Below are positions 10,757-32,000 of a stretch of 32,000 nt of DNA, in pieces. The first letter of the stretch is position 1; each line of letters begins with the position of its first letter. Below the pieces are notes generated by a model, which saw only the letters and a program-made list of their open reading frames with translations, ran no database searches and had not been told where the DNA came from. Origin of the DNA: Gemmata obscuriglobus (GTDB taxonomy: Bacteria > Planctomycetota > Planctomycetia > Gemmatales > Gemmataceae); assembly GCF_008065095.1 (NCBI RefSeq), contig NZ_CP042911.1:1470001-1502000 (forward strand), written 5' to 3'. Both the position numbers and the translations under genes were made by a program.

Positions 10757-11563
10757 TCAGATGCCGTGCAGGTACGGCATGACCACGAGCACCTCTTCGC
10801 GGGTCAAGTGCCCCTCTTGCACGAGGTTGCACACGATGCGGTTTTGCCAGTGGTCTAAGAGGTCGCTGTGGAACGTGGCCGGCGGCGGGTTAAAGCCTCC
10901 TGCGCGGAGTCGATCAGCCGCCCCGCGCTCTTCCCAATCGCATTTGATCAGCGCCAGGAGGGCCAGCGCCTTCGCTCGGCACGCGGGCACCAACTCGCGT
11001 TGCGCAGCTTCCGCCGAGAGCCGACGCACGGCCAGCTCGCGCGCGTCGCGAACCTTCTTGCTCGCGATCTCTTCAGCGCCGGCGAGCCGCCGGACGCGCG
11101 TCCGGAGACGTTCAAGCGTCTCGATGTCCGCGTCGGATTGGCCCGCGGCCAAGAGCTGCACCGCGAGCTTTTCCACGTCCTTCGCCGACGCGCCCGGCTT
11201 CAGCCCTAACGCGGTCTCCAGCGCCGTGATTTCCGCCACCAGCGCGAGGCGCTGTTCCGAGAGCCGGGTTAACCCCGCCTGCGCTTCGACCACCTCCGGC
11301 TCTTTGTTCGGATCGGGCAAGCCCACGATGGCTACGCCCGTGCGGGCCGGGAAGGGTACGGGTGCCGGTAACGAGGCCTTGGAAGCCACGGGCATCGGCT
11401 CCGGCCCCTGCCGCTTGTGCGGCGTCGTGGTGCGCGCCGGCTCGGCGCGTCGCATTCGCTCAGCAACCGCGGCGCCCGACTCGCTTTCGCCCGCGACATC
11501 CCGCGCCATCTGCGCGAGCATGTCGTTCACAACCGCCGCATCCGCCTCAGCTTCGTTCGCCAT
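10757..11563 (-). CDS. hypothetical Ala/Glu/Arg-rich coiled-coil protein (scaffold-like guess)
   Basis: ORF 10757..11602; ATG at 11563 (MANEAEAD). Long helical, low-complexity stretches. Confidence 0.55.
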   Translation of the reverse strand: MANEAEADAAVVNDMLAQMARDVAGESESGAAVAERMRRAEPARTTTPHKRQGPEPMPVASKASLPAPVPFPARTGVAIVGLPDPNKEPEVVEAQAGLTRLSEQRLALVAEITALETALGLKPGASAKDVEKLAVQLLAAGQSDADIETLERLRTRVRRLAGAEEIASKKVRDARELAVRRLSAEAAQRELVPACRAKALALLALIKCDWEERGAADRLRAGGFNPPPATFHSDLLDHWQNRIVCNLVQEGHLTREEVLVVMPYLHGI

Positions 11564-11623
11564 GATCACCTTTCGTTTCGTGATGCCGTTCAGCCCGACC
11601 ACAGCGGCCGGGTGGTTGCCACG

Positions 11624-12082
11624 TCAGCCGCACAGGCAATCGACGTAAAACTCTTCACCGCAGAAGTCGCACAACTCCTCTTTGGCAGGGCGAGCACAGC
11701 GGGGCGAGGTGTTCGCCAGCGCCGCCGCGATACGCTGCTGATCGGCCAACCCGGCGAGCGCCCGGCACTGCGCCGAGATGCGTTCCATGTCGCGGGTCAA
11801 CTGACTCTTCCCGGTCGAAGCGGGCCGCGCGCCCCCGCTTCGCTGGATGTGCGATCGCGCCGAGTCGAGCGGAACCCGCCGGCCCGAACGCAGGTGCAAC
11901 GTCGTGCTCCCCAATCCCAGACCGGGCGAGCGCTGCACCAGCATCAACTGTGTCTCGATCGCTTCCGCCAACTCGATGTCCCCCGCGGCTTCCGCCTCGT
12001 GCGACACCTTCTCCAAGTCCAGCAGCGCGGACGCGATCCCGGCCGTGTTCCCGCGCTGGTGTTCTTTCGATGCGTAGATCAT
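11624..12082 (-). CDS. hypothetical protein with C-terminal Cys cluster
   Basis: 152-aa ORF ending in CDFCGEEFYVDCLCG. Confidence 0.45.
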   Translation of the reverse strand: MIYASKEHQRGNTAGIASALLDLEKVSHEAEAAGDIELAEAIETQLMLVQRSPGLGLGSTTLHLRSGRRVPLDSARSHIQRSGGARPASTGKSQLTRDMERISAQCRALAGLADQQRIAAALANTSPRCARPAKEELCDFCGEEFYVDCLCG

Positions 12083-12099
12083 TCAGCCCCCGTGTGACT

Positions 12100-12324
12100 T
12101 CAGCCCCGAATCTCAACCACCTTGCCGCCTCGCGTCGCACCCAAGCCCGCGCCGTCCCCAAGCAACTCCCGCGGGATGCGCAGTTGCCGCCCGACCCGGT
12201 TCACGACCAGTGCGCCCGACTTGATGAGCCGGCGCACCGTTGATTCCGACACCTGCTTCGCCCGCGCGAATTGCGGAACGGTGAGGTCCGTTGCGCCTTC
12301 GGGCAGAACCGCGTTGGTGAGCAT
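12100..12324 (-). CDS. excisionase-family HTH DNA-binding protein
   Basis: LTVPQFARAKQVSESTVRRLIKSGALVVNRVGRQLRIPRELL matches the excisionase/MerR-like HTH_17 pattern. ATG at 12324. Confidence 0.6.
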   Translation of the reverse strand: MLTNAVLPEGATDLTVPQFARAKQVSESTVRRLIKSGALVVNRVGRQLRIPRELLGDGAGLGATRGGKVVEIRG

Positions 12325-12458
12325 TGGTGAATACCCCTGACCGCTCGTGACGCCCCCTGACGCCCGCAACTGTTCCCCGGGTGCCCGAAACGTCCTGGTG
12401 CGCACGAAAAAACCGCGCGGGGATTCCGCGCGGTCGTGTGGTACTAGGATCGCCGGGT

Positions 12459-12938
12459 TTACAGCATCTCGCCTTCGAGCACTTCGAGCGGTGCGCCGCG
12501 CACGGTCACCGTGGTTGCGAGGTACGCCGGGCTTGCCACCGGCGAGAAGGCCACAAGGTCAACGTCGAGGTGTTCGAGGACGCGCTTACCGCCGACGGTG
12601 AAGGACCGGGACGCGCGCGGATAAAAGCTCACGGACGCGCCCCGCAGGGTCCGGCCCGCGACCAGCTCGCGGACGTAGGCGCCGCCCGCACCCGTGAGCC
12701 GCACGGAGCACCACAGACCGGCCGCATCGGTCCACAGGCGAACGGTCCCGTCCGACGTGTACCCGAGACGGATTTCGCCGTTGTGGAGCAGATCGCACCG
12801 CACGTCACGGCGCCGGCTCAGCGTGCGCTCGAACGCCGACGGTGCGAACCGCTCGAAGCGGCCGTCAGCCAACTCGTATTCGGTGCCCGCATCGCCCGCG
12901 CGATAGAACGGGCACACCAGCCCGAATAGTTCGCCCAT
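12459..12938 (-). CDS. HK97-family phage prohead protease
   Basis: ERFAPSAFERTL...DVRCDLLHNGEIRLG...LWTDAAGLWCSVRL...LRGASVSF...VDLVAFSPVASPAY follows the prohead protease (S78/U35) motif order, with candidate His and Ser. Confidence 0.7.
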   Translation of the reverse strand: MGELFGLVCPFYRAGDAGTEYELADGRFERFAPSAFERTLSRRRDVRCDLLHNGEIRLGYTSDGTVRLWTDAAGLWCSVRLTGAGGAYVRELVAGRTLRGASVSFYPRASRSFTVGGKRVLEHLDVDLVAFSPVASPAYLATTVTVRGAPLEVLEGEML

Positions 12939-12954
12939 GACGCCCTCACGTTGG

Positions 12955-13509
12955 TTACCCGGCCGTCAGCCGCTTCTCACCGTTCCGCCGGGATGGGGTG
13001 ACCAACGGCCCATCATGAAGGAGCTTCGCGGCCTTCGTCAGGTGCACTTGCACCGTGTTCGGCGAGCGGCCCGTGAGCAGTCCAATTTCGCGCATGCTGA
13101 AGCCGTCGGTTAGGTACAAGCGCACGATGAACGCGAGGTCTTCTGGCAGGTCGTCCATCAGCACCGGGCGCACGGGTTTCTCCGTCCGTGCGCACATGCT
13201 CTCGATAGTGCCCTCCGTCGTCGGGTCCGCGGCCCGTGGACGGTTCGCCCGCTTCCGCTTGATCCGGTGCATCTGACGCCACACCCAGCGCCGAACCGCG
13301 GCCTTCGCGAAGTTCTCGAACGTGGTCGCGTCCGTGCAGTTCTTGATGGCCCACATGACCGCGTTGGTCGCCGCGTCCGTAAGCTCGTCCTCAACCTCGG
13401 TTGCACCCTTAGCGCGGTATCGAGCGTGTCCGCACGCCCACTCGTAAACCGCTGCGATCGCGGCATCTGGAACCGCCACCGTTACCTGAACCGTTTCGCT
13501 CACGCCCAT
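12955..13509 (-). CDS. ECF-like sigma-70 family RNA polymerase sigma factor
   Basis: Region-2-like DELTDAATNAVMWAIKNC...FENFAKAAVRRWVWRQMHRIKRKR. Region-4 HTH LPEDLAFIVRLYLTDGFSMREIGLLTGRSPNTVQVHLTKAAKLL. ATG at 13509 preferred; the 295-aa extension runs through non-coding-looking repeats. Confidence 0.7.
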   Translation of the reverse strand: MGVSETVQVTVAVPDAAIAAVYEWACGHARYRAKGATEVEDELTDAATNAVMWAIKNCTDATTFENFAKAAVRRWVWRQMHRIKRKRANRPRAADPTTEGTIESMCARTEKPVRPVLMDDLPEDLAFIVRLYLTDGFSMREIGLLTGRSPNTVQVHLTKAAKLLHDGPLVTPSRRNGEKRLTAG

Positions 13510-13570
13510 TCGCTGCCCTCGCAAAGTGTCTGTCGTTACCACGCCGAGTGGCCGGGGGTGCGTCTCAACA

Positions 13571-13710
13571 CGCATCTGTAAACGGATGCGCACGGACGAA
13601 AACGGATGCGCGCACAAGTGGGCAGATGAAAGCACCCGTGCGCAGGTGAAAACAGATGTACCGTATTCGTATTCGTATTCGGGTGCGTATTCGGGTTCGG
13701 ATTCGTTCTC
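13571..13710. repeat. phased short-motif array plus hexamer tandem repeat upstream of the sigma gene
   Basis: CRGRTG at 13583, 13603, 13623, 13643 and 13653, and inverted at 13573, all on a 10/20-bp register. 12-mer AAACGGATGCGC at 13580 and 13600. GTATTC-type hexamers x7-8 at 13663..13710. Confidence 0.6.
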
Positions 13711-14015
13711 TTGCTCGGAGGTGGCCAAGCCACCAACCGAGCCGGCGGTAGTGCCAGTGCGTGCCATAGCTCGATAGTGTTGCTTTTGAGGGGCGTATTT
13801 GTCGAGGTTCGCAATCTGATTCGTGGCCGCAAGCGGCGCCACTCGCCATTTTGAATTGAAGGGGTCTAAAATCGAAAACGCACCCTTTGCCGCCCGTCTG
13901 CCTATCTGTTCACCCGTTCACGCCCTGGCGCAAGTGCTAGGGCCGTTTCTGACCGTGTGGCGAAGCGTGCGGAGGATCGTGCCGCTGTGGGCGTGGGTTG
14001 ATGGAGGCGGGGGCG

Positions 14016-14053
14016 GTTGCCCCTGCGACAGGCTTCGGCCCCGCAGGGGCAAC
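14016..14053. other. long GC-rich stem-loop (possible terminator) downstream of CDS 14073..14435
   Basis: GTTGCCCCTGCG (14016..14027) pairs with CGCAGGGGCAAC (14042..14053), a 12-bp stem. T-rich tract only on the plus-strand side. Confidence 0.4.
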
Positions 14054-14072
14054 ACTGTCTTTAGTCTCTTCT

Positions 14073-14435
14073 CTACTCTTCTCTGGCGCCACTTTGTGAC
14101 GCTACAGTTACATCACTCGTGGCGCCACCGGTGACAGCCTTCCGAGACGCCTTTCGTTCACGGTAACGCCTCTGGCGCTCCGCGTGCGCGGCTCGCTGAT
14201 CGCCTGTCGGATCTACGTTAAAGTCCTCGAAGAAATGCGGGAAAACAAGGTTCCCGCCACTCTCCACGAGCCACCCGACCGCGATCATAGCCACACCCAT
14301 ACCGGGCATGTCCGCGATGGCGTCAATCACGCTGGCGCCGCACCCACGGATTACTAAGTCGTCACCGTCGCGATTCCCGCTGCGTCTCGCAACACCCCAC
14401 ACCGCCACCAGCGCGCCTACGGTGGCGTTACGCAT
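14073..14435 (-). CDS. hypothetical protein, weakly replisome-organizer-like
   Basis: 120-aa ORF. The C-terminal FFEDFNVDP...AAHAERQRRYRERK resembles the basic tail after the winged helix of phage replisome-organizer N-domains. This is recollection only. Confidence 0.5.
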   Translation of the reverse strand: MRNATVGALVAVWGVARRSGNRDGDDLVIRGCGASVIDAIADMPGMGVAMIAVGWLVESGGNLVFPHFFEDFNVDPTGDQRAAHAERQRRYRERKASRKAVTGGATSDVTVASQSGAREE

Positions 14436-14489
14436 GATGTCACGTGTGACGCTACCGTTGTGTCCGTCGTGACGACACGAGCGCGTCGC

Positions 14490-14540
14490 GAGGTTCCGTA
14501 GGAACCTCTATGTCTTTACTCTGATCTCTGATCTCTGAGG
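14490..14540. repeat. hairpin + (CTGATCT)x2 module, copy 1
   Basis: GAGGTTCC-GTA-GGAACCTC hairpin at 14490..14508, then CTGATCT CTGATCT CTGAGG at 14521..14540. Confidence 0.75.
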
Positions 14541-14572
14541 CTTTGGACATGGTTTGAGGCGACCTTTGCTGC

Positions 14573-15233
14573 ACCTTTGGGGCAACCTTTGGAGAACCTT
14601 TAAAGGTGTCGCCGGGAGTAGACTTTTGCGCCGCCTTCTCGCCAACATCGTTCGGCGGACTGCCCAATTCCGCCCGAGGCGCGTCGGCGCCCCCACCAGA
14701 CACCGAAACCACCCCCGACATGACCTTTGCAGACACCTTTAAAGGTCCGGTCAAAGGTGCCTGCGCAGAACCTTTAAGCCGGGGGCTGCCCCAACCTTTG
14801 GGGCAACCTTTGTCCGCCTTTGGGGGTGTCACCAAAAGCCCCAGTAGGTTCCGAAGGAACCTAATCTGATCTCTGATCTCTGATCTCTGAGGGAATATCC
14901 CCACCCTTAACCACACCCTTAAGGGTGCCCTTAACCGCTGCGCCGGGGGTGGGCTTATCCCTCCCCTTAAGGTCGGGGTTGCCGCCGAGCCGGCCCGCCG
15001 CGCTCGCCTTCGCCCTAAGTCCTTCATCCGCAACCATTCGCCGCGAGTAGATCGCTCCGTTCCCGTCGCGCAAGAACACCCCGGCGCTTTCAAGTTCGTC
15101 GAGAAGGTCAAGAACCACCTCGGACGATTCGCCGCACGCGCGAGCCAACTGCTCCGGGGTAATCGCAGCTTGGGGTTGGGCAGGGGTTGAGCCGCCGGTT
15201 AAGCCAACCCTTAACCCACCCCTTAAGGGTACG
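14573..15233. repeat. dense field of short direct and palindromic repeats (candidate iterons/ori)
   Basis: 19-bp perfect direct repeat ACCTTTGGGGCAACCTTTG at 14573..14591 and 14794..14812. 15-bp inverted pair at 14596..14610 and 14732..14746, containing the ACCTTTAAAGGT palindrome. CACCCTTAAGGGTG palindrome at 14914..14927. CCCTTAAGGG at 15220..15229. Several more CCCTTAA copies. Confidence 0.7.
14845..14893. repeat. hairpin + (CTGATCT)x3 module, copy 2
   Basis: TAGGTTCC-GAA-GGAACCTA hairpin at 14845..14863, then CTGATCT x3 + CTGAGGG at 14866..14893. Confidence 0.75.
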
Positions 15234-15265
15234 ACGTGTTCGAGTCCACCGCGACGCGAGCGTTC

Positions 15266-16558
15266 CTACCCCATCGCCCGCGCCACTTCGATTTTCGCCT
15301 GCCTCTTCGGATCGACGTGAACGTAGACCGCTGCCGCCACGGCCTCCGAGTCTCCAATTGCCGCCGCCGCGTGCGTCAAGCTCCGGAACCGCTCTGCAAC
15401 AGCCGTTGCCAGCGCGTGCCGCAACTGGTGCGGTGTCCACACGGGCACACCAGCTTTCACCGCCGCGAGCTTCACGGTAGCGCGGTAACAGTCGCGGTCG
15501 ATCGGGAACACCTTCTCGCCCGGCTTAGTCGCGGCGAGGTGCGGCCGGAGCAGCTCGACGGCTTGCGGCCCGAGGAAGTATTCTTGCCCCTGTCCGCGGT
15601 GTAGGTTCTTGTTCGCCTTGCCCACCTCGTAGCACCACACATCGCCCCTTTGGTCGATCTCCTCCGGCACCATCGCGCACACCTCGCCCGGCCGCATACC
15701 CGTGAGCCTCTGTAGCCTCACCATCGCGACGACACGCGAACGGCGCTCCGGGGAGCGGTTGGGGATGCACGCTAGCGCGGACTCAATTTGCGCGTCCGTG
15801 GTCGGCTTACGGCGCTGCCGATCCGGCGCCTTCGTGCGTCCCGGCGCAAGCCTCTCCACCAATTTCAGTGTGTTGTAGACCGTCTCGGACACAAGGGATT
15901 GTGCGGCACACCAGCGGAAGCACCGGACAATTCGAGCGGTGTACGAATTGCACACGCCGCGGGTGAGGCCGCCGTTTACAAACTCCTCGCGGCAAACGCG
16001 GAGCATGGCGGGTTTGAAATCTTGGGCGGGTGTGTTGCCGTACAAGCTAACCGCAACGCGGGCCGCCGCGCGGACGTGGGTCAACTCGCTCGTCTGCTCA
16101 CCGCCTTTGACGTAATGCCGCTCGCAGTGAGATACCCAGGCTTTGAACAGGCTCGCGACAGAAGTGCCGTCCGGTCCACCAGCCGCGATGAGGGTTTCGT
16201 AGGCACCGCTTGCCCACTCTGCGGCAAACCGCCGGTAGGCTGTTGCCGCTTCCGCGCTGCCGTACTTTCCGAAGTACCGTTCATGCCGCCGGCCGTTTGC
16301 TTTCCATCGGCAGTATGCTCGCCCTGATGGGTGGCGCTTGTACTCTGGGCACGCGCGAGGAACGCCAGCCTTCGGCCGCCCGCGCCGGCCCCGCGATTTC
16401 GCGGGTGTGTTCAGCGCTCGTGCCGTGTCCCACCCAAGCTGGTGAATCCGCGTCCATACCGTGTACGGCGAAATCTGGCGAATCCTCGCCCACTCCGCGA
16501 GCGTACGAGACTCTCCATCGAGTTCGAAAAGGGGAGACTTCGGCATTTTGCACCTCAT
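15266..16558 (-). CDS. int: tyrosine site-specific recombinase (phage integrase family)
   Basis: C-terminal catalytic pattern RLTGMRPGEVCAM...HQLRHALATAV...AAAVYVHV (R...HxxR...Y). Adjacent to attR. Alternative ATG at 16546. Confidence 0.9.
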   Translation of the reverse strand: MRCKMPKSPLFELDGESRTLAEWARIRQISPYTVWTRIHQLGWDTARALNTPAKSRGRRGRPKAGVPRACPEYKRHPSGRAYCRWKANGRRHERYFGKYGSAEAATAYRRFAAEWASGAYETLIAAGGPDGTSVASLFKAWVSHCERHYVKGGEQTSELTHVRAAARVAVSLYGNTPAQDFKPAMLRVCREEFVNGGLTRGVCNSYTARIVRCFRWCAAQSLVSETVYNTLKLVERLAPGRTKAPDRQRRKPTTDAQIESALACIPNRSPERRSRVVAMVRLQRLTGMRPGEVCAMVPEEIDQRGDVWCYEVGKANKNLHRGQGQEYFLGPQAVELLRPHLAATKPGEKVFPIDRDCYRATVKLAAVKAGVPVWTPHQLRHALATAVAERFRSLTHAAAAIGDSEAVAAAVYVHVDPKRQAKIEVARAMG

Positions 16559-24906: not shown

Positions 24907-25001
24907 GGGAGCGTTTGCACGACTGGTGTCGGCCCAGGTCTTCAAAACCTGTGTAGGGTGTGAACAACGCTCTAGGTGGGTTCGATTCCCATCCGCTCCC
25001 G
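24907..25001 (+). tRNA. selC: tRNA-Sec (anticodon UCA)
   Basis: Hand-folded cloverleaf. Acceptor GGGAGCG/CGCTCCC (7 bp). T arm GGTGGG-TTCGATT-CCCATC (6 bp), so the acceptor/T helix totals 13 bp. Anticodon arm CAGGT-CTTCAAA-ACCTG, with U33 and A37 flanking TCA. Long variable arm of 7 bp (TAGGGTG/CGCTCTA). 4-bp D stem with a 4-nt loop. 95 nt; CCA not encoded. Confidence 0.75.
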
Positions 25002-25663
25002 CTGAAATCATGTCGCGTCCCCTGGTTCGCGTTCGAGCGCGGGGAAGGGCGGGGGGCCGGTTCCGTTCGGCACACCCCGCACATTCCGATCGCATTCCCC
25101 TCAAAACGCACTTCCGGCAGTTTTCCCGGCCCGCGTGGGTCCGTCGGCCCCGGTTCGCGTCCCACAGCGGAAACCCATGCCCCGATACATCCCCGCCACA
25201 ACTAGCGACCCGATCACACGTTGCGGCGCCTTCACTCACCGAAGCCGGCAACCCTTCTGCGTTCACCGGGAGCGTTCTCCGGGTTTTGCGGGCACGATTC
25301 GGTGGTAGCGGCGACCAGCGAGCGGGTAGCGAATCGGCAGTCCGAAGCCCCGCAGATGTCCAGTCGTGGCCCCATCGCCTGTTTCGCGTGCCTTGTAACC
25401 CCCGTTACAGCCCCGCGCGGGCACGATGCGCCCGAATGGGGCGGTGCGTGCGCGCGGACCGTCCCCCTACTTAACTGATGGCACCGCACGCGATCCGGCG
25501 GACGCCACGCGCGGTTGAAGAGTGTCGGTGGTGGGGAAGGGCGGTCTGGCTGGCACCCGTGGTTCGACCGTGGCTCGTCGAACCAGGGGGGGGCAACCGA
25601 ATTTCCAGTTGGTGTGGCGCATCCCCGCCGCCCATTAACATGAGCAAGGGGCAAGAGGTGCCT

Positions 25664-25673: not shown

Positions 25674-26902
25674 CAGGGCTACTCAGAGATTGAAGCCGGG
25701 GCGTTAAGTAGGTCCAGGGCGAGGTCGGGTCGGGCGACCATGGCCCGGGTTGCCGCGGCCACACTGGGGTGTTCGGCGTTCCGCAACAGGTACACGGCGA
25801 CGTTCCGTAGGGACGCCAACGCGCGTGGGGCGTGACCGCGCCGCACCCGGCACCGGTCCTCGCCGAGCGTCACGTCGCGGGTGTAATGCAACCCGTTCTC
25901 GATACCCCAGTGGCGGCGTGAGTAACCTAACAGGGCGGCCGCGTCGGCCGCCAAGCGGCTGAGGCTGGTGATCCCGTACACGACCTCCACCGTGGCCTTC
26001 CCGTTCGCCTTCCGGCGGCGCTCCAGTCGGAACACCTGTCCCAGGCCCGGCCAGTGGCTCAAGTACCCGTTGAGCCACGTCGTGGTGGTGATCGTCCGCC
26101 GCTCGACACGCCCGTGTCCCTTGCGGTGGTCGGTTGCCGTGCTCGCGTCCTCAGCCCACTGTGCCGGAACCGAGGGGGGAAAAGCCGCCGGACTCGGCAG
26201 CGAAGGCGGTCTCAATGTCCCGCCGCAGCTCGGACTGGTTGCCCTTGGCGTAGAGGATGTAATCGCCGCCCTTCTGGACCACCTTCGCGCACACGTCGGC
26301 GTGGGTAAACATGGCGTCGGCCGTGACCACGGTCCCGCCCAGCGAGGGCAGCACGTCCAGCAACCGGAGGGCCGCCTTGTGCTCGTTGGTGGTGGCTTCG
26401 ACGGTCATCTGGGCGAGCACCGCGGACGCCTGGGGGGCGTACGCGGCCAGCAGGTGGGTGCCCGGCACGTCCCCGTCCCGGGACCCGCACAACCGCTTGC
26501 CGTCCAACGCCAGGTGCTCCCACCCGTCCGGGTGCCGGTCCTCCAGCCATGCGCCGATGATCCGGTCCAGGTGGTCGGCGTCCAACTTCCGCAGCAACCC
26601 GGCAATGGTATTAGCGCACGGCATGTTGCCGTTCTTGAACCCCAGCGCGTGGCCCAGCCGCTTCTGGCGGAGACGGCCGAACTGGGCGATGGCCGCGGGC
26701 GTGGTGTGACCGGCCAGGATCGCCACCAGGCACAGGGTCAGCAGACCCACCAGCGGGTACTGGCGACCGTGCCGGCTCCGCGGGTCCGGTAACTCGGCCA
26801 ACCGCTCAACCAGTGACCCGGGCATCGACGACTCCCGAATGAGGAGTCGCTCACATACCCAGATGCAGCACCTTGCCCAAGGTCAATCCGTGCGTAGCCC
26901 TG
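25674..26902 (-). mobile_element. ISAs1-family insertion sequence
   Basis: Terminal inverted repeats CAGGGCTAC (25674..25682) and GTAGCCCTG (26894..26902), extending imperfectly for about 22 bp. Flanked by a 10-bp direct duplication. ISAs1-type transposase inside. Confidence 0.85.
25679..26825 (-). pseudogene. ISAs1-family (H-repeat-associated type) DDE transposase, frameshifted
   Basis: N-part 26151..26825 (LPDPRSRHGRQYPL...TADAMFTH...). C-part 25679..26215 (KGHGRVERR...HWGIENGLHYTRDVTLGEDRCRVR). The two frames overlap at the G6/A4 homopolymer run 26174..26183. Confidence 0.8.
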
Positions 26903-26912
26903 CCGTTCGGTC
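26903..26912. repeat. target-site duplication (CCGTTCGGTC), right copy
   Basis: See 25664..25673. Confidence 0.8.
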
Positions 26913-27125
26913 TTGACCGGCCACGCCGTGCGGGGAATGGTGCGAATCGGAGAATAGGGATGAAACGGTCATTCTCGACGCCATGCGTTTGCTGTTAACA
27001 TGAGTGGGATGCGGCGTTACGGGGCAGTTCGGCGGTGCGGCGTAGTCAGCCCTTTACCTCACACAATCGCAATGTCGTTTTTTCACCGCATCTGATGTCT
27101 CGGTCCAGCTCCACCAGGCCCAATC

Positions 27126-28109
27126 ATGAACGCAGATATCCTGAAACGCCTGGTGCGGGCCATCGCTGAAGGGGCTCAAGACGACCTGAACTCTCTTGCC
27201 CAAAAAGTCATCGAGACGGAGCGGGAAAGCGGGCATAGTAAGCTCGCCGGCGAACTCGACAGGATTCTTCAACGCACCCGCCAGCGTGGCCCAACCACCC
27301 CGGCACCGGACCTCCGCGAACTGCCCAGTAGCCGTCGCAACCGTGAGCTGCTCGTCTCGCTGCACCAACGCGACACCCTCGAACACTCGATGGTCTTGCC
27401 GGCAGACGTTGAAGAGCGCTTCGCCCGGGTCGAACGCGAGTACGCCGCCCGTGAGCGGCTCTCGGCCTACGGACTGCAACCGCGGAAGCGTGTGCTTCTT
27501 TACGGCCCGCCCGGCTGCGGCAAATCGCTCGGGGCCAAGCGGCTCGCCTGGAACACCACGTTGCCGCTCATGAAGGTGCGGTTCGACGCCCTGCTCTCGT
27601 CGTACTTCGGTGAATCGGCGGCGAACCTTCGGATGGTGTTCGAGGCGGCCAAGGAGCGGCCCTGTGTGCTGCTCCTGGACGAGTGCGACTTCATCGCCCG
27701 CTCCCGGACCGGGAGCCGCGACATCGGAGAGGCGTCGCGCGTTGTGAACGCACTGCTCCAGTTCCTGGACGAGTACGACGCACCGGGTATACTGGTTGCG
27801 ACAACCAACGTCGAAGAGTCACTTGACGAAGCTATTTTCCGCCGCTTCGACGACGTGTTCCTGATCCCTCTGCCCGGTCACACCGAGATCGAGCGCCTCC
27901 TCAGGCTGACACTTTCTGCCATCAAGGTTGGAAAGGTGGATTGGAACGCGGTCACCGGTGCGCTCGCGGGCGCCTCCGCGGCATACGTCGTCAAAGCCGC
28001 TCGGGACGCGGCGAAGGCGGCGGTTCTGGCCGGTCGAAAGGTCGTCGAGGAAGGCGACCTTCAACGGGCCATCGGCGAGATCAGAAAAGGTAATTCCTCC
28101 ACACCGTAG
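27126..28109 (+). CDS. classical AAA+ ATPase (IetA-like partner of the S8 protease)
   Basis: Walker A LLYGPPGCGKS, Walker B VLLLDECD, sensor/second region of homology ATTNVEESLDEAIFRRFD. About 130-aa helical N-terminal extension. Stop is 8 nt before the next start. Confidence 0.9.
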   Translation: MNADILKRLVRAIAEGAQDDLNSLAQKVIETERESGHSKLAGELDRILQRTRQRGPTTPAPDLRELPSSRRNRELLVSLHQRDTLEHSMVLPADVEERFARVEREYAARERLSAYGLQPRKRVLLYGPPGCGKSLGAKRLAWNTTLPLMKVRFDALLSSYFGESAANLRMVFEAAKERPCVLLLDECDFIARSRTGSRDIGEASRVVNALLQFLDEYDAPGILVATTNVEESLDEAIFRRFDDVFLIPLPGHTEIERLLRLTLSAIKVGKVDWNAVTGALAGASAAYVVKAARDAAKAAVLAGRKVVEEGDLQRAIGEIRKGNSSTP

Positions 28110-28117
28110 ACCGCTAC

Positions 28118-30769
28118 ATGCCGCCCACAAACAAGCCCTTCCCGCACCTACCACTCATCCTTCGCTACGACGGTCCCGCTCGCTCCGGGAAGCCACCACA
28201 CGGCGACCCGCGAACGAGGCTCGCCAAAGAGAACCGATCGGGGCACGGCGGCGGGCTCACCAACTCCGCCGCGAACGCTTCGGCCGCGTGGAGGCTACGG
28301 TTCGAGGACCGCGAACGGGCCAACTTGCCGGTTCTTCCGAAGAACGTCCCGCTCGTTCTCGAAGTGGACACGTCCCTCGACCTCGACGAGTTGCGCAAGA
28401 ACTTCGGCTTCGAGTTGGTCTCCGAGCAGGAGGACGGGTACGTCATCGTCGCCTCGGAAGACCTCGACCTGAGCCTCTTTCTGAAAAAGCTCCAAGACTT
28501 TATTGCTCAGGTGAAGGGCTCGGCCACCGTCGCGGCAATTTACCGGCTCGAAGACGACCCCGACCAATCGAAGCGGCTCTCCCGCATCCTCTCCGAACGG
28601 CTGCTGAGCGAATGGCCCACCCTCGCAGAAAACGGAGATTACATCGTAGACGTGGGGATCGCATGCAGCGGACAGATTCAAATCCCGCCCCAACCCGGCG
28701 CTCCCAAACGGAACCACCGCTGGTCCGATATGACCTGGGCGAAGCGGCAGGGCGAACACGCAACGAAAATGAAGGACTGGACCGAGCAGCGGAATGCCGC
28801 CTACATGGCCTGGCAAGACCTCGCCGACGCCAGGTATAACGAAGTGAGTGCGATTGTCAACTTTTACGGCGGGAGCATCCTCAGCCAGTCCGACAAGCCG
28901 CACACCGACACGGCTCTCGCCGACAGCTTCACGCTCCGCATCCGCCTCAACGGCAAGGGGCTCCGCGACCTCGTGCTGAACTACTCATTCATCTTCGAGG
29001 TCGTGGAACCCGATGACGTCTCGCTGCCGCAGGTACTGCGTGAGGCCGTCGCACGCGATAAGGAGAGTGTCACCCTCGTTCCCCCACCGCCGAACGCCCC
29101 GGCCGTGTGCGTCGTCGACAGCGGCCTTCAGCACGAGCACTACCTGCTCGAACCCGCCGTCGATCGGGACGCGGCCTTCTGCTTCCTACCGGGTGCCTCT
29201 CCCACCGACGTTGCCGATTACGTAAGGCCCGGGGGCCACGGAACACGTGTCGCGGGGGCCATTCTGTACGGCGAATCAATCCCTCGCTCGGGGAGCTACG
29301 AACTCGCGTGCTGGCTCCAAAACGCCCGCGTGCTCGACGCCGAATGCAGACTGCCCGACCGGCTCTTTCCCCCGGCCCTCCTGAACGAGCTGATTCGGCG
29401 CTTCCACGAGGGGCCGCGAAGGACCCGGATTTTCAACCACTCGATTACCGCCAGTGCCGCATGCCGGACGCGGCACATGTCGGCGTGGGCGGCAGAAATT
29501 GACCAACTCTCGCACCTCCACGACGTGCTCTTCGTGGTCAGCTCCGGTAACCTCTATTCTTCTGGCACGGCCGCTATTCCCGGAGTGCGTCAGCACTTGG
29601 TCGCCGGTCGCACGCACCCCGACTACTTGTGCGAGGCCGCGTGCCGCGTCGCGAACCCGGCCCAAAGCCTCCAGGCCCTCACGGTCGGCTCCATTAGTTA
29701 CCGAGAGTTTGAAGACCCCGATTGGTTGTCGTGTGCCCGGCAGGCGCATCACCCCTCGGCCTTCTCACGAAGCGGTCTCGGCATTTGGAACACAATTAAA
29801 CCCGAAGTCGTCGAGTTCGGAGGCGACAACCTCGTCTCGCGTAACACGCCCCCCGACGTCGGCACCCCGCCGTGCGGTCGTGAGTGCTACCCCGAGCTTG
29901 TCCGCTCGACGATGCACTCGCCCGGCCCCGCCTACGAGCGAGACGTCGCGGGAACCTCGTTCGCCGCTCCGAAAGTGAGCCGCATCGCCGCACACCTCCA
30001 AGACGTTCTGCCGGACGAATCGTGCCTGCTCTACCGGGCTCTGATTGTTCAGTCGGCCCGCTGGCCGGGGTGGACCAGGAACGCCACGCCCGCGGAACAG
30101 GGCAACATCATCCGATGGATCGGGTACGGCGTGCCCGACATCGAGCGGGCTTCATCGAACACCGAGCACCGCACAACGCTTGTGACCAGCGGCGACCGAA
30201 CGATTAAGGCCCGCGGGTGCCACATCTACCAAGTTCCCATCGACGCCGAGATTCGTCGGCCGGGCAGCGACTACGACGTACTCGTTGAAGTCACCCTCTC
30301 GTATTCGGCCGAGCCGCGCCGAACGCGGAGGAACCGCCGCCGTTACCTGTCAACGTGGCTCGACTGGAAGAGCAGCAATCAGGGCGAACCGCTCGAAGCG
30401 TTTCGTCGCCGGGCCATCAAAACGGAAACGGAAGATGAGGGCGCGGGCGCCCCGTTCGCCTGGGTGGTCGGAAGCAGCGCCAATCACGGAACCGTCCGCG
30501 GTGTGTCGCGAAGCGCCGGGACGGTCCAGAAAGATTGGGCAATCGTCAAGTCGAATGCCCTACCCGAGGACTTTTGCATCGCTGTTGTGGGCCACGAGGG
30601 GTGGAGTAAAGACCCCGACTCCGCAGCGACGTACACGCTTGCCGTCAGCGTGGAAATGGTGGGGAAAGAGATTCCGATTTACGAACGTCTTCGGGTCTCC
30701 GTGGATAACCTGCGAGCAGAGGTCGAGGTCGAAACCGAAGTCGAAGCAGAGATCGAAGCCCTCGGATAG
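28118..30769 (+). CDS. large subtilisin-family (S8) serine protease with unassigned ~330-aa N-terminal and ~250-aa C-terminal regions (IetS-like)
   Basis: Catalytic triad motifs in canonical order: VCVVDSG (Asp334, nt 29117), GHGTRVAG (His374, nt 29237), GTSFAAPKV (Ser614, nt 29957). No signal peptide apparent. Confidence 0.9.
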   Translation: MPPTNKPFPHLPLILRYDGPARSGKPPHGDPRTRLAKENRSGHGGGLTNSAANASAAWRLRFEDRERANLPVLPKNVPLVLEVDTSLDLDELRKNFGFELVSEQEDGYVIVASEDLDLSLFLKKLQDFIAQVKGSATVAAIYRLEDDPDQSKRLSRILSERLLSEWPTLAENGDYIVDVGIACSGQIQIPPQPGAPKRNHRWSDMTWAKRQGEHATKMKDWTEQRNAAYMAWQDLADARYNEVSAIVNFYGGSILSQSDKPHTDTALADSFTLRIRLNGKGLRDLVLNYSFIFEVVEPDDVSLPQVLREAVARDKESVTLVPPPPNAPAVCVVDSGLQHEHYLLEPAVDRDAAFCFLPGASPTDVADYVRPGGHGTRVAGAILYGESIPRSGSYELACWLQNARVLDAECRLPDRLFPPALLNELIRRFHEGPRRTRIFNHSITASAACRTRHMSAWAAEIDQLSHLHDVLFVVSSGNLYSSGTAAIPGVRQHLVAGRTHPDYLCEAACRVANPAQSLQALTVGSISYREFEDPDWLSCARQAHHPSAFSRSGLGIWNTIKPEVVEFGGDNLVSRNTPPDVGTPPCGRECYPELVRSTMHSPGPAYERDVAGTSFAAPKVSRIAAHLQDVLPDESCLLYRALIVQSARWPGWTRNATPAEQGNIIRWIGYGVPDIERASSNTEHRTTLVTSGDRTIKARGCHIYQVPIDAEIRRPGSDYDVLVEVTLSYSAEPRRTRRNRRRYLSTWLDWKSSNQGEPLEAFRRRAIKTETEDEGAGAPFAWVVGSSANHGTVRGVSRSAGTVQKDWAIVKSNALPEDFCIAVVGHEGWSKDPDSAATYTLAVSVEMVGKEIPIYERLRVSVDNLRAEVEVETEVEAEIEALG

Positions 30770-30853
30770 GACGATCGAGCCACTCACGCCTGGGAACATT
30801 TTGAAGGGACGGCAATTTGCCAGTCATCGAGTTCGGGCCGTTCCAGCAACTGA

Positions 30854-31525
30854 AAAGGCCCGAACCCGCCGTTCAGCTACCGGTGGGAGCCGGACGGGGC
30901 GATGAGCGAGGACCCGCGGTTCAAGGCCCACGGCGTGGCCCCGAAGAGCGCGGCCGACTTCGCGTTCCTGCTGCACGGGCTGCACGACCTGAAGGACGAC
31001 GGGGTGATGGCGATCATCCTGCCGCACGGGGTGCTGTTCCGCGGCGGCGCGGAAGAGCGCATCCGCACGAAGCTGCTGACCGACGGGCACATCGACACCG
31101 TCATCGGGCTGCCGCCGAACCTGTTCTACTCGACGGGCATTCCGGTCTGCGTGCTGGTGCTGAAGAAGTGTAAGAAGCCGGAGGACGTGCTGTTCATCAA
31201 CGCGGCCGAGCACTTCGCGAAGGGGAAGCGGCAGAACCGTCTGGAGCCCGAGCACATCGCGCGGATCATTGCGACGTACCAGGACCGCCCGGAGAAGGTC
31301 GAGCGCTACGCCCGTCGGGTGGGGATGAAGGAGATCGAGGCGAACGAGTACAACCTGAACATCTCGCGCTACGTCAGCACCGCCGAGCAGGAGGGGGAAG
31401 TGAAGCTGGATGAGGTCCATTCCGAACTGGTCGCGATCGAGAACGCCCTCCGGGCCGCGACCGAGAAGCACAACCGCTTCCTCAAGGAGCTGGGGCTGTC
31501 GCTGCTCCCGTCGGGGGACCAGTGA
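30854..31525 (+). pseudogene. hsdM: type I restriction-modification methyltransferase HsdM, 5'-truncated remnant
   Basis: The frame opens directly after a TGA at 30851 and reads KGPNPPFSYRWE... (NPPF motif IV at 30863..30874). It continues DFAFLLH...ILPHGVLFRGGAEERIRTKLL...IGLPPNLFYSTGIPVCVLVL...YNLNISRYV. The N-terminal AdoMet-binding half is absent. Confidence 0.8.
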
Positions 31526-31625
31526 TACCGAATCCAGTAGTTTCAAGTTGGGCGATTTATGAGTAGCGGGCCGCATGGGTTTACCGGTCAATGGTGGTTA
31601 CCACGCCTCCACTGTCGGAGCCCCC

Positions 31626-32000
31626 ATGCGACCCAAACGTCAGTCTATCCGAGCCACCCCGGCCCACGCCACCCGGCACCTCCGTCCGGTCCTGACCGAC
31701 TGGCTCGGCCGTGCGGTCCAACTGCCCAAGCGTCGCCGCACCTGTACACCCGAGGTGGTGTGGCGGGTGGTGCTGTTCGCCGCGGCGTTCGCCCGCTCGG
31801 TGGCCGCGGCCTGTGCCGCGATCGCCGACGCCCCGTCCGGGCAGGCCATCTGGGATTGCTTGTACCTCACGCTGCCCAAGCGGCGCCGCACCCTCGAGCG
31901 GCGGTTGCGGCCGGCCCTCCACGCCCCGCTCGGCAAGCGGAAGCGGGCGGCTCGGGTCGCGATCGACTACCACCGGATCGGGTACTTCGGGACGCCGAAC
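31626..32000 (+). CDS. IS4-like DDE transposase, N-terminal part (runs off the window)
   Basis: My own translation from ATG 31626 has no stop to the window end: MRPKRQSIRAT...TPEVVWRVVLFAAAFARSVAAACAAIADAPSGQAIWDCLY...RVAIDYHRIGYFGTPN. The pattern resembles IS4/IS701-type N-termini with the first catalytic Asp in AIDYH. This ORF is not in the supplied track. Confidence 0.5.
   Translation, partial: MRPKRQSIRATPAHATRHLRPVLTDWLGRAVQLPKRRRTCTPEVVWRVVLFAAAFARSVAAACAAIADAPSGQAIWDCLYLTLPKRRRTLERRLRPALHAPLGKRKRAARVAIDYHRIGYFGTPN

What the first reader, a model, noticed from the sequence alone, without database searches (positions are those of the whole stretch)
27126..30769. Tightly coupled AAA+ ATPase + giant S8 subtilase cassette in a tRNA-linked island (ietAS-like defence candidate)
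Seen in sequence:
- A 327-aa classical AAA+ ATPase (Walker A GPPGCGKS, Walker B LLLDECD) ends 8 nt before an 883-aa protein.
- That protein has a complete subtilase triad (D334, H374, S614).
- I see no signal peptide, so it looks cytoplasmic.
- About 330 aa at the N-terminus and about 250 aa at the C-terminus have no motif I can assign.
- The pair is visibly less GC-rich than the chromosome.
- It sits between an IS, a decayed type I R-M methylase and another IS, directly downstream of a tRNA. That is classic defence-island context.

From knowledge: an ATPase plus S8 serine protease two-gene operon is the architecture of the ietAS (Gao_Iet) anti-phage pair. As far as I know its mechanism and trigger are unresolved.

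Inference: this is either a divergent Iet homologue from a phylum where it has not been studied, or an analogous ATPase-gated protease system. The large unassigned domains of the protease are where a sensor or substrate-recognition function would sit.
Basis: partly seen in the sequence, partly recalled or inferred. Interest (0 to 1): 0.8.

Follow-up and report, generated by a model that had tools for sequence, protein, structure and literature searches.

The report
Divergent IetAS defence pair in Gemmata
This is an intact but divergent copy of the already known IetAS (Gao_Iet) ATPase-plus-protease toxin–antitoxin/anti-phage module, carried on a small decayed mobile island beside the selenocysteine tRNA gene of Gemmata obscuriglobus. 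It is a routine database call, not a new kind of system.

Summary
A 327-aa AAA+ ATPase gene (27126-28109) ends 8 nt before an 883-aa cytoplasmic S8 subtilase gene (28118-30769). The pair has lower GC than its flanks. It lies between tRNA-SeC plus a frameshifted IS on one side and a truncated hsdM plus an IS4-type transposase on the other.

PADLOC IetA and IetS models hit at E 9e-76 and 8e-59. The pair is homologous to the founding pTiC58 ietAS pair: 37% identity over the full length for the ATPase, 27% over the catalytic and C-terminal region for the protease.

The host is Gemmata obscuriglobus. The same full-length subfamily, at 48% identity or more, occurs in at least 380 species across many phyla. 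The ATPase sits directly upstream in 76 of 76 loci where this could be tested.

The "unassigned" domains are Iet-specific:
- The C-terminus is a beta-sandwich covered by the IetS models.
- The first ~100 residues are homologous to pTiC58 IetS (hhalign 82%, E 1e-5; Pfam Y4kK_N).
- Residues ~103-313 have no confident structural relative.

IetA keeps an invariant substrate-threading pore loop.

Likely mechanism: the ATPase restrains a toxic protease until phage infection, and release causes abortive infection.

Verdict: new member of a known kind, low interest. The Iet mechanism itself is still unsolved.

The parts
24907..25002 (+). tRNA-SeC (anticodon TCA). It marks the left boundary between the high-GC core and the lower-GC island.
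   Evidence: ARAGORN. GC falls from 0.75 to 0.66-0.69 immediately after it.
25679..26825 (-). ISAs1/IS4-type transposase split into two overlapping ORFs (26151-26825 and 25679-26215). It is frameshifted and so probably inactive.
   Evidence: Pfam DDE_Tnp_1_assoc plus DDE_Tnp_1 on the first ORF, and the DDE_Tnp_1 C-terminal part on the second.
27126..28109 (+). ietA: a 327-aa classic-clade AAA+ ATPase, the putative antitoxin/regulator.
   Evidence: PADLOC IetA E 9.2e-76. Pfam AAA at residues 123-249. 37% identity over the full length to pTiC58 IetA. Closest solved relatives are Cdc48/p97 D2 and PAN.
27504..27527 (+). IetA Walker A (GPPGCGKS, aa 127-134; K133).
   Evidence: Sequence. Conserved in 73 IetA homologues.
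27603..27617 (+). IetA pore-loop 1 (Y160-F-G-E-S164), the aromatic-hydrophobic-Gly motif that threads substrates in protein-unfolding AAA+ ATPases.
   Evidence: FGES is invariant in 73 homologues. The motif assignment is by analogy with p97 D2, PAN and FtsH (established knowledge).
27669..27689 (+). IetA Walker B (LLLDECD, aa 182-188; D185/E186).
   Evidence: Sequence; conserved.
28110..28117 (+). 8-nt spacer between the ietA stop and the ietS start, consistent with translational coupling.
   Evidence: In 72 related loci the inferred spacing clusters at 0-3 nt and mostly lies between -14 and +16.
28118..30769 (+). ietS: an 883-aa cytoplasmic S8 subtilase, the putative toxin/effector.
   Evidence: PADLOC IetS E 7.6e-59. 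Pfam Peptidase_S8 at residues 328-662. 27% identity to pTiC58 IetS over residues 320-765. AF2 model with pLDDT 82.8.
28118..28423 (+). IetS N-terminal module (aa 1-102). It consists of a conserved FPHLxL...GGG...NR..H peptide, a long helix and a first strand, and is shared with pTiC58 IetS.
   Evidence: hhalign profile-profile comparison: probability 82%, E 1e-5, residues 1-102 against 1-105. The reversed control gave 0.5%. Invariant F8, L11, L13 and H43. Pfam Y4kK_N, weak.
28424..29056 (+). IetS middle N-terminal region (aa ~103-313). It is made of alpha/beta (ferredoxin/ACT-like) modules and a 46-residue helix, is specific to this subfamily, and is the candidate sensor or regulatory region.
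   Evidence: N-terminal model with pLDDT 89.6 and pTM 0.80. No significant PDB or viral structural match; best E 3e-3 at TM 0.2. Found only at the N-terminus of ~830-920-aa proteins, or in shorter, presumably fragmentary sequences, in 325 clusters.
29099..30103 (+). IetS S8 catalytic domain (aa 328-662) with D334, H374, N478 and S614.
   Evidence: Foldseek hits to Tk-SP, KP-43, Kex2/furin and subtilisins at E 1e-19 to 1e-11.
30155..30667 (+). IetS C-terminal beta-sandwich domain (aa ~680-850). It contains an invariant but low-confidence polybasic loop, P733-RRTRRNRRR-Y743 (nt 30314-30346).
   Evidence: Secondary structure and pLDDT. Covered by PADLOC IetS profiles. Invariant P733-R737. The top structural neighbours are subtilases with C-terminal beta domains.
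30680..30766 (+). IetS C-terminal amphipathic, acidic helix (aa 855-883, ...EVEVETEVEAEIEALG).
   Evidence: Helix H855-882 in the model; composition.
30863..31525 (+). Truncated type I R-M methylase (hsdM) remnant. Only the C-terminal part of the catalytic domain is left; the ORF is 30902-31525.
   Evidence: Pfam N6_Mtase positions 145-309 of 311. PADLOC MTase_I profile positions 319-483 of 857. DNA similarity to hsdM genes starts at window position ~30863.
31575..32000 (+). 5' part of a 402-aa IS4-type (DDE_Tnp_1) transposase gene that continues beyond the window, in the right part of the island.
   Evidence: Full ORF read in L083 13458-14666. Pfam DDE_Tnp_1 E 1.4e-7. GC falls again to 0.61-0.64 just past this ORF and returns to 0.72-0.76 only from about 500 bp beyond it, at the ECF-sigma fusion genes.

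Best explanation
The two genes are a complete, apparently functional member of the IetAS (Gao_Iet) family. They belong to a divergent subfamily that spreads by horizontal transfer. In Gemmata obscuriglobus they sit on a ~9-10 kb decayed island next to tRNA-SeC.

Proposed working:
1. IetS is a cytoplasmic subtilase whose proteolytic activity is toxic.
2. IetA is a classic-clade AAA+ protein remodeller made from the same transcript by coupled translation. It uses ATP to keep IetS harmless, which is the antitoxin role. It most likely does this by binding or threading part of IetS, and the conserved N-terminal module is the best candidate handle.
3. On infection, a phage protein or a phage-induced state disturbs this restraint.
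4. IetS then cleaves cellular and/or phage proteins and the infected cell arrests or dies (abortive infection).
5. The same logic makes the pair an addiction module for the element that carries it.

What is shown and what is inferred:
- Shown here: family membership, intact catalytic motifs, strict gene pairing, cytoplasmic location and the foreign-island context.
- Taken from the literature on other Iet systems: toxin/antitoxin roles, abortive infection and the phage trigger.
- Inferred: the unfoldase-type restraint and the N-terminal handle.

Confidence by part:
- Membership: about 0.9.
- TA/abortive-infection logic applying to this copy: about 0.6.
- The specific threading mechanism: about 0.2.
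For: **Membership**
- PADLOC IetA E 9.2e-76 with near full-length coverage, and IetS E 7.6e-59.
- NCBIfam's best hits are the anti-phage IteA and IteS models.
- 37% identity over the full length and 27% over ~450 aa to the pTiC58 ATPase/S8 pair. That pair is where ietAS was defined (reference 61 in PMC13069673).
- The N-terminal 100 residues are also homologous to pTiC58 IetS, and there is a Pfam Y4kK_N hit.

**Intactness**
- D334, H374, N478 and S614 are invariant in the protease.
- Walker A/B, the FGES pore loop, the ATTN sensor and the FRRFD arginine-finger region are conserved in 73 IetA sequences.

**Pairing**
- IetA lies directly upstream on the same strand in 76 of 76 loci that have upstream DNA.
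- Spacing clusters at 0-3 nt.

**Protein-remodelling type of ATPase**
- The closest solved or curated relatives are Cdc48/p97 D2, PAN and FtsH.

**Cytoplasmic location**
- No signal peptide or membrane segment.

**Literature on other Iet systems**
- Protease as toxin and ATPase as antitoxin; ietA mutants cannot be constructed; protease activity is needed for defence; the mechanism is unknown.
- Abortive infection, and toxicity triggered by SPbeta YosG.

**Mobile and defence context**
- Low GC, two IS elements, an hsdM remnant and the tRNA-SeC border.
- Relatives sit in variable neighbourhoods with R-M methylases, helicases, integrases, transposases and RepB.

**N-terminal handle**
- Residues 11-20 are confident (pLDDT 83, strand 14-19) only when the whole protein is modelled. 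They fall to pLDDT 49 in the N-terminal domain alone.
Against: - No experiment exists for this copy or this subfamily. Expression in Gemmata was not examined.
- Scores are far below NCBIfam's equivalog cut-offs: 221.6 against 510 for IteA and 116.2 against 900 for IteS. Function is therefore transferred across a large distance.
- No IetS profile aligns the ~310-residue N-terminus, so sensing could differ from the studied systems.
- The island around the pair is decayed, so the pair could be a silent relic.
- An orphan, N-terminally truncated IetS without IetA sits beside parAB on a Planctomycete plasmid. A strictly toxic protease would not be expected there unless that copy is dead.
- The threading idea rests only on motif conservation and a pLDDT difference. 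I could not inspect model coordinates.
Confidence: 0.75

Rival explanations
1. The pair acts mainly as a post-segregational killing or addiction module that stabilises the mobile element carrying it, which is the role first described for ietAS on pTiC58. On this reading it is not an anti-phage system in this host. The two roles are not mutually exclusive.
For: - ietAS was originally found as a plasmid-stabilising toxin-antitoxin system (reference).
- Relatives are abundant on conjugative plasmids: 502 plasmid records, 348 of them conjugative.
- RepB/partition genes neighbour some relatives.
- Here the pair lies on a horizontally acquired island.
Against: - Iet systems from E. coli and B. cereus protect against phages and act by abortive infection.
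- This copy is chromosomal, on an island with no integrase or replication genes left, so there is little left to stabilise.
- R-M genes adjoin this copy and several relatives.
Confidence: 0.15
2. The pair is a silent, decaying relic. The genes look intact but are no longer expressed or needed, like the frameshifted transposase and truncated hsdM around them.
For: - The flanking genes are degraded: a frameshifted IS and an hsdM fragment.
- No recognisable att repeat or integrase remains.
- Only two weak sigma-70-like promoter matches were found in the 26800-31000 scan.
Against: - Both ORFs are full length and keep every invariant residue of their families.
- A toxin gene whose antitoxin partner is intact is under selection for as long as the toxin works.
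- The promoter scan is not informative for Planctomycetes.
Confidence: 0.07
3. The pair is a housekeeping ATP-dependent proteolysis machine in which the AAA+ unfoldase feeds substrates to the protease, analogous to PAN-proteasome, FtsH or Lon.
For: IetA is closest to PAN, FtsH and Cdc48 and keeps the substrate-threading pore loop.
Against: - Distribution is patchy and driven by horizontal transfer across phyla at 48% identity or more.
- The pair sits on a low-GC island, and neighbourhoods of relatives are variable and rich in mobile-element and defence genes.
- S8 subtilases are not self-compartmentalised proteases (established knowledge).
- The family is experimentally a toxin-antitoxin and defence system.
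Confidence: 0.03

Closest known systems
IetA/IetS of Agrobacterium Ti plasmid pTiC58 (Yamamoto et al. 2009; the founding toxin-antitoxin pair). Read here as NC_003065.3 97873-101373.
   Same: - Same gene order, with the ATPase followed by the protease and a spacing of a few nucleotides.
- IetA is 37% identical over its full length.
- IetS shares the S8 domain and the C-terminal domain (27% identity over residues 320-765).
- IetS also shares the first ~100 N-terminal residues (hhalign 82%).
   Different: - Residues ~103-313 of the Gemmata IetS show no detectable similarity to pTiC58 IetS.
- The Gemmata protein is 883 aa against 836 aa.
- It is on a chromosomal island rather than a conjugative plasmid.
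Gao_Iet / ietAS anti-phage systems tested in E. coli and Bacillus cereus (Gao et al. 2020; Stokar-Avihail et al. 2022/2023)
   Same: Both proteins match the PADLOC IetA and IetS models built for this system. The best NCBIfam hits are the anti-phage IteA and IteS models. All catalytic motifs are intact.
   Different: - Scores lie well below NCBIfam's equivalog cut-offs.
- No IetS model aligns the N-terminal third.
- No phage or trigger is known for this subfamily. The known trigger, YosG, belongs to a Bacillus phage.
ietHAS (Liu-DS4), an ietAS variant with an SNF2 helicase (NAR 2026, PMC13069673)
   Same: The same ATPase and protease core.
   Different: No helicase gene adjoins this pair. Upstream is an IS and downstream is an hsdM fragment. 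Some relatives do have DEAD/ResIII/SNF2 neighbours.
Y4kK (Pfam PF27160, Y4kK_N). My recollection, not checked here, is that Y4kK is encoded next to the AAA ATPase Y4kL on Rhizobium plasmid pNGR234a.
   Same: The N-terminus of the Gemmata IetS carries a weak Y4kK_N hit. If my recollection of the pNGR234a genes is right, the architecture is the same ATPase-plus-S8 pair.
   Different: The hit is only weak, and the local Pfam copy lacks this model. The pNGR234a proteins are uncharacterised.
Classic-clade AAA+ unfoldases (Cdc48/p97 D2, PAN, FtsH, Vps4-type)
   Same: Walker A/B, the aromatic-hydrophobic-Gly pore loop, sensor 1 and the arginine-finger region are present. E values are 5e-49 to p97/Cdc48 and 2e-33 to PAN models.
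   Different: IetA has a single AAA module with a short (~100 aa) helical N-domain specific to Iet. It has no fused or chambered protease partner.
Subtilases with C-terminal beta-domains (Tk-SP 3afg, KP-43 1wmd, Kex2/furin P-domain)
   Same: The best structural neighbours of the IetS model: an S8 core followed by a beta-sandwich.
   Different: Those enzymes are secreted and are made with a cleavable I9 propeptide. IetS is cytoplasmic, has a ~310-aa N-terminal region of a different, unmatched fold, and shares only 12-20% identity with them.

Membership tests
IetAS / Gao_Iet defence (toxin-antitoxin) system | An IetA-family AAA+ ATPase is present (family HMM match). | tested here: met
   PADLOC PDLC02196 IetA: E 9.2e-76, residues 6-321 of 327 against profile positions 7-323 of 374. 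Three further IetA models score E 1e-62 to 1e-41.
IetAS / Gao_Iet defence (toxin-antitoxin) system | An IetS-family S8 serine protease is present (family HMM match). | tested here: met
   PADLOC PDLC02198 IetS: E 7.6e-59, residues 314-846. Seven further IetS models score E 3e-41 to 3e-9. The N-terminal 313 residues are not aligned by any of them.
IetAS / Gao_Iet defence (toxin-antitoxin) system | The two genes are adjacent and co-directional, with the ATPase first. | tested here: met
   8-nt spacer. The same arrangement holds in pTiC58 and in 76 of 76 testable related loci.
IetAS / Gao_Iet defence (toxin-antitoxin) system | Homology of both proteins to the founding pTiC58 pair. | tested here: met
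   IetA: 37% identity, E 1e-60. IetS: 27% identity, E 7e-26. N-terminal module: hhalign probability 82%, E 1e-5, against 0.5% for the reversed control.
IetAS / Gao_Iet defence (toxin-antitoxin) system | Catalytic residues needed for function are intact (ATPase Walker motifs, protease triad). | tested here: met
   The protease requirement is stated in PMC13069673.
IetAS / Gao_Iet defence (toxin-antitoxin) system | Equivalog-level similarity to the E. coli-type IteA/IteS (NCBIfam curated cut-offs). | tested here: not met
   IteA scores 221.6 bits against a cut-off of 510. IteS scores 116.2 bits against a cut-off of 900. The pair is therefore a divergent subfamily and not an equivalog. This does not exclude family membership as PADLOC defines it.
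IetAS / Gao_Iet defence (toxin-antitoxin) system | Phenotype: the protease is toxic without the ATPase, and the pair gives phage protection or abortive infection. | not testable with these tools
   This needs cloning and phage challenge. It is known only for the Agrobacterium, E. coli and Bacillus systems.
ietHAS (helicase-containing Iet variant) | An SNF2-type helicase gene lies in the same operon. | tested here: not met
   No helicase ORF lies next to the pair. The neighbours are a transposase and an hsdM fragment.
Classic-clade AAA+ protein unfoldases | Walker A/B, an aromatic-hydrophobic-Gly pore loop 1, and a second region of homology with arginine fingers. | tested here: met
   GPPGCGKS at 127, YFGES at 160, LLLDECD at 182, ATTN at 225 and FRRFD at 238, conserved in 73 homologues. 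Best PDB relatives are Cdc48/p97 D2.
Classic-clade AAA+ protein unfoldases | Hexameric ring that translocates polypeptide. | not testable with these tools
   No multimer prediction or biochemistry was available.
CBASS-associated TRIP13/HORMA regulators | A TRIP13-type ATPase with HORMA and CD-NTase partners. | tested here: not met
   The TRIP13 models hit far more weakly (E 7e-16) than IetA. No HORMA or cyclase gene lies in the locus.

The most novel reading that the evidence does not exclude
IetA may be an "unfoldase antitoxin". On this reading its invariant pore loops grip the strictly conserved N-terminal FPHLxL...GGG...NR..H peptide of IetS, a peptide shared even with the distant pTiC58 protein. 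IetA would then continuously remodel or hold the protease in an inactive state. The subfamily-specific middle region (residues ~103-313, tandem ferredoxin/ACT-like modules with no structural relative) would be the sensor whose engagement by a phage factor stops this restraint. The invariant polybasic loop (PRRTRRNRRRY) in the C-terminal domain could be an autoprocessing or docking site. If this is right, it would supply the missing mechanism for the whole Iet family.
Probability: 0.2. Interest if true: 0.6.

Novelty: new member of a known kind. Interest (0 to 1): 0.25.

Why it matters
As a genome feature it matters little. It adds one more Iet locus, in a public genome, that PADLOC-type tools recognise.

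Its modest value lies elsewhere. The Iet mechanism is still unknown (PMC13069673, April 2026), and this analysis defines a large, well-conserved subfamily. That subfamily spans at least 380 species across many phyla, with strict pairing of the two genes. It also yields concrete handles to test:
- an invariant substrate-threading pore loop in the "antitoxin" ATPase;
- an N-terminal peptide module conserved from Gemmata to Agrobacterium;
- a variable middle domain with no known fold;
- an invariant polybasic loop.

The subfamily also has close relatives in tractable Proteobacteria (Paraburkholderia, Variovorax, Komagataeibacter) where these ideas could be tested.

Tried and rejected
- **Island att sites.** I looked for a direct repeat of the tRNA-SeC 3' end in the window and in the extended locus L083. 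Only short chance-level repeats turned up.
- **Promoter and terminator scan of the cassette.** Nothing convincing was found, and the scan is not suited to Planctomycetes.
- **Solved structure of an Iet protein.**
  - The sequence search found no IetS-like chain in the PDB.
  - The fold search returned only generic subtilases.
  - No cryo-EM or mechanistic Iet paper is in the held library.
- **Fold of the N-terminal 325 residues.**
  - The model is good (pLDDT 89.6).
  - It has no significant match in the PDB; the best is E 3e-3 at TM 0.2, to ACT-like regulatory subunits.
  - It has no significant match among viral structures either.
  - I therefore reject any specific domain assignment beyond "tandem alpha/beta, ferredoxin/ACT-like".
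- **N-terminal alignment from genome loci for structure prediction.** I worked around this by aligning the N-terminal fragment to full-length database homologues.
- **N-terminal profile against the single pTiC58 sequence.** The result was inconclusive (probability 20%). It became significant only with a 112-sequence pTiC58-family profile.
- **Local Pfam copy.** It lacks PF27160, so hmmscan showed only Peptidase_S8 even at E 10.
- **Yamamoto 2009 paper.** It is not held, so it is cited through PMC13069673.
- **Alternative families considered and rejected.**
  - ietHAS: no helicase is present.
  - A TRIP13/CBASS regulator: the hit is weak and there are no partner genes.
  - A secreted subtilase: there is no signal peptide.
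- **Phage carriage.** Only 6 weak hits to the S8 core were found in 50,697 phage records.

Full report
**1. Observation**

The ORF table shows 27126..28109 (+), 327 aa, and 28118..30769 (+), 883 aa. The ATPase stop codon (TAG, 28107-28109) is followed by the 8-nt spacer ACCGCTAC and then the protease ATG.

The ATPase carries GPPGCGKS at residue 127 and LLLDECD at residue 182. The protease carries VVDSG (D334), GGHGT (H374), SSGN (N478) and AGTSF (S614). All four protease residues are invariant in an alignment of 70 homologues.

There is no hydrophobic stretch anywhere in the protease. The maximum Kyte-Doolittle score over 19 residues is 1.05, and over 12 residues in the first 70 residues it is 0.26. 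The protein is therefore cytoplasmic.

GC is 0.62-0.66 over the pair, against 0.72-0.78 in the core genes at 17-25 kb. Those core genes encode an MFS transporter, a CitMHS transporter, a histidine kinase and an NtrC-type regulator.

The only tRNA in the window is tRNA-SeC at 24907-25002. The features after it are:
- A frameshifted DDE_Tnp_1_assoc/DDE_Tnp_1 transposase at 25679-26825 on the minus strand.
- The ATPase/protease pair.
- A type I methylase fragment at 30902-31525, which matches only positions 319-483 of an 857-position profile.
- A 402-aa DDE_Tnp_1 transposase starting at 31575 and running beyond the window.

**2. Identity**

PADLOC models give IetA at E 9.2e-76 (residues 6-321) and IetS at E 7.6e-59 (residues 314-846). 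Several further IetA and IetS models also hit, and nothing else scores comparably.

NCBIfam's best hits are the anti-phage IteA and IteS models, but they score far below the curated equivalog cut-offs: 221.6 against 510, and 116.2 against 900. Pfam sees AAA at residues 123-249 and Peptidase_S8 at residues 328-662.

The protease is 100% identical to a Gemmata obscuriglobus protein annotated "Subtilase family protein". The locus is CP025958.1 6509589-6532240.

ietAS was defined on the Ti plasmid pTiC58 (reference 61 of PMC13069673). That plasmid carries an ATP-binding protein followed by an S8 peptidase gene 3 nt downstream. The Gemmata ATPase is 37% identical to the pTiC58 ATPase over its full length (E 1e-60). 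The Gemmata protease is 27% identical to the pTiC58 protease over residues 320-765 (E 7e-26).

**3. The "unassigned" domains**

*C-terminus.* PADLOC IetS profiles extend to residues 846-863. The AlphaFold model (pLDDT 82.8, pTM 0.68) shows an all-beta domain at ~680-850, followed by a long acidic helix at 855-882. The best PDB neighbours are subtilases with C-terminal beta domains: Tk-SP 3afg at E 1e-19, then KP-43, Vpr and Kex2/furin. No Iet structure is in the PDB by sequence or by fold.

*N-terminus.* A phmmer search of residues 1-320 against 1.84 billion cluster representatives found 325 clusters. In every listed match the domain sits at the N-terminus, in proteins of ~830-920 aa or in shorter sequences that are presumably fragments.

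A separate model of residues 1-325 is confident (pLDDT 89.6, pTM 0.80). It shows a long helix (40-67), several beta-alpha-beta units and a 46-residue helix (204-249). It has no significant structural match in the PDB, where the best is E 3e-3 at TM 0.2 to ACT-type regulatory subunits and NikR. It has none in the viral library either.

BLASTP and the PADLOC profiles do not align this region to other IetS proteins. A profile-profile comparison does link part of it. I compared 50 sequences of this subfamily with 112 of the pTiC58 subfamily. Residues 1-102 align to pTiC58 1-105 with probability 82% and E 1e-5, and a reversed-sequence control gives 0.5%. The shared signature is an N-terminal peptide FPHLxL...GGG...NR..H followed by the long helix. 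The collection's precomputed annotation also reports a weak Pfam PF27160 "Y4kK_N" hit; the local Pfam copy lacks that model.

The domain layout is therefore:
- A conserved N-terminal module, residues 1-102.
- A subfamily-specific alpha/beta region, residues 103-313.
- The S8 core.
- A beta-sandwich.
- An acidic helix.

**4. Conservation of the pair**

A scan of one genome per species (185,579 species) found 380 loci encoding full-length relatives. The best 80 are 48-76% identical over essentially the whole protein. They come from Planctomycetota, Acidobacteriota, Beta- and Alphaproteobacteria, Nitrospirales, Gemmatimonadota, Verrucomicrobiota, Myxococcota and others. That distribution is best explained by horizontal transfer.

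An IetA homologue (61-88% identity) lies immediately upstream on the same strand in 76 of these 80 loci. The other four have no upstream DNA on the contig. The inferred spacing clusters at 0-3 nt.

Across 73 IetA sequences the following are conserved:
- Walker A and Walker B.
- ATTN (sensor 1).
- FRRFD (arginine-finger region).
- The pore-loop motif; FGES of YFGES at residue 160 is invariant.

IetA's nearest characterised relatives are protein-remodelling AAA+ ATPases: Cdc48/p97 D2 at E 5e-49, then PAN and FtsH.

**5. Context**

The island runs from tRNA-SeC to about 1.2-1.5 kb beyond the window end. There GC returns to 0.72-0.76 at three ECF-sigma fusion genes. The island contains no integrase and no detectable att repeat. 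It is a small, decayed remnant.

I sampled 115 flanking ORFs from 29 related loci. No third gene is conserved. Defence and mobile-element functions recur:
- HsdM/type I methylase: 3-5 ORFs.
- DEAD/ResIII helicases: 4-5.
- Eco57I-type methylases: 2.
- Integrases: 2.
- RepB: 2.
- Also transposases, HEPN, JetD-like domains and SNF2.

I did not compute a background rate, so this counts as supportive only. Relatives of the catalytic region are common on plasmids: 502 records, mostly conjugative. They are rare in phage records: 6 weak hits.

**6. What is known about Iet**

- ietAS was first described as a plasmid-stabilising toxin-antitoxin pair, with the protease as toxin and the ATPase as antitoxin.
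- Defence needs protease activity, and ietA mutants cannot be constructed.
- A variant exists with an essential SNF2 helicase (ietHAS).
- The anti-phage mechanism "remains unknown".

All four points come from PMC13069673, April 2026.

The B. cereus system acts by abortive infection. It becomes toxic when the SPbeta gene yosG is expressed, and escaper phages map to replication-associated genes. E. coli ietAS gives limited protection alone and synergises with Zorya II.

**7. Mechanism proposed for this locus**

Shown here: both enzymes are intact, cytoplasmic, translationally coupled and strictly co-inherited. The ATPase is of the polypeptide-threading type.

Transferred from the literature: the protease is the toxic effector, the ATPase restrains it, and infection releases it, leading to abortive infection.

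Inferred: IetA restrains IetS by engaging it directly. The conserved N-terminal peptide is the best candidate handle. In the full-length model residues 11-20 are ordered (pLDDT 83, strand 14-19), but they are disordered (pLDDT 49) when the N-terminal domain is modelled alone. This suggests the peptide docks on the catalytic or C-terminal part. I could not inspect coordinates to see where.

The variable region at 103-313 is the natural place for trigger recognition. The invariant yet low-confidence loop PRRTRRNRRRY (733-743) may be a processing or docking site.

**8. Rivals**

- **Addiction module for the element.** This is compatible with the best explanation and is the historically first function.
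- **Silent relic.** The neighbours are decayed, but both ORFs keep every invariant residue.
- **Housekeeping AAA+/protease machine.** The patchy, transfer-driven distribution contradicts this.

**9. Verdict**

The cassette is a divergent but clear member of a known and catalogued defence/toxin-antitoxin family, in a sequenced model planctomycete. Novelty is "new member of a known kind". Interest is low (0.25). It is raised slightly because the family's mechanism is unsolved and this large subfamily offers clean, testable features.

Noticed in passing
window 8994-16558 (minus strand): This is a second, separate low-GC block (GC 0.49-0.69). It ends in a tyrosine integrase at 15266-16558 (PHROG integrase, E 6e-29). 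It also contains a head-maturation protease at 12459-12938 (Pfam S78, PHROG 80), a weak small-terminase-like ORF at 12100-12405, a sigma-70 region-4 protein at 12955-13842, and several ORFs with no family match, including a 281-aa ORF next to the protease that could be a capsid protein. It looks like a prophage remnant or a small capsid-encoding satellite-like element.
   Followed up: partly
window 7666-8991 (-) and 3564-4334 (-): A 441-aa pentapeptide-repeat protein lies in the lowest-GC stretch of the window (0.49-0.55). An IS3-type transposase (rve, HTH_21) lies nearby. Neither has a PADLOC hit.
   Followed up: partly
L002 (Planctomyces sp. SH-PL62 plasmid pPL62-2, NZ_CP011275.1) 7941-10496: A 66%-identical IetS homologue sits directly after parA/parB. 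It lacks the first ~58 residues, which form the conserved N-terminal peptide module. No IetA homologue lies anywhere in the 18-kb stretch. An orphan protease missing exactly the proposed IetA handle is either dead or informative about what that module does.
   Followed up: partly
window 30314-30346 (IetS residues 733-743): The polybasic loop PRRTRRNRRRY has P733-R737 invariant across 70 homologues, yet its pLDDT is below 50 in the model. A weaker version exists in pTiC58 IetS (EP..GERGQTRRHSY). It could be a cleavage, docking or nucleic-acid-contact site.
   Followed up: no
window 24907-25002: The tRNA bordering the island is tRNA-SeC (selC). From general knowledge, this is a classic integration hotspot for genomic islands in Enterobacteria. 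Here no integrase or att repeat survives.
   Followed up: partly
window 30770-31525: DNA similarity to hsdM begins at ~30863, only ~95 nt after the ietS stop. The remnant is 74-77% identical at the DNA level to plasmid-borne hsdM genes of Klebsiella, Raoultella and Comamonas. The fragment was therefore cut on its 5' side right at the cassette boundary.
   Followed up: partly
L083 15087-22652 (beyond the window, downstream): Three consecutive ~965-994-aa proteins fuse an ECF sigma-factor N-terminus (Sigma70_r2/r4) to CarboxypepD_reg-like repeats. They lie just outside the island at core-genome GC.
   Followed up: no
window 27054-27479 (-): A 141-aa antisense ORF overlaps the ietA start and passes a crude GC3 coding filter. 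It is most likely an artefact of the high-GC composition. I did not examine it further.
   Followed up: no
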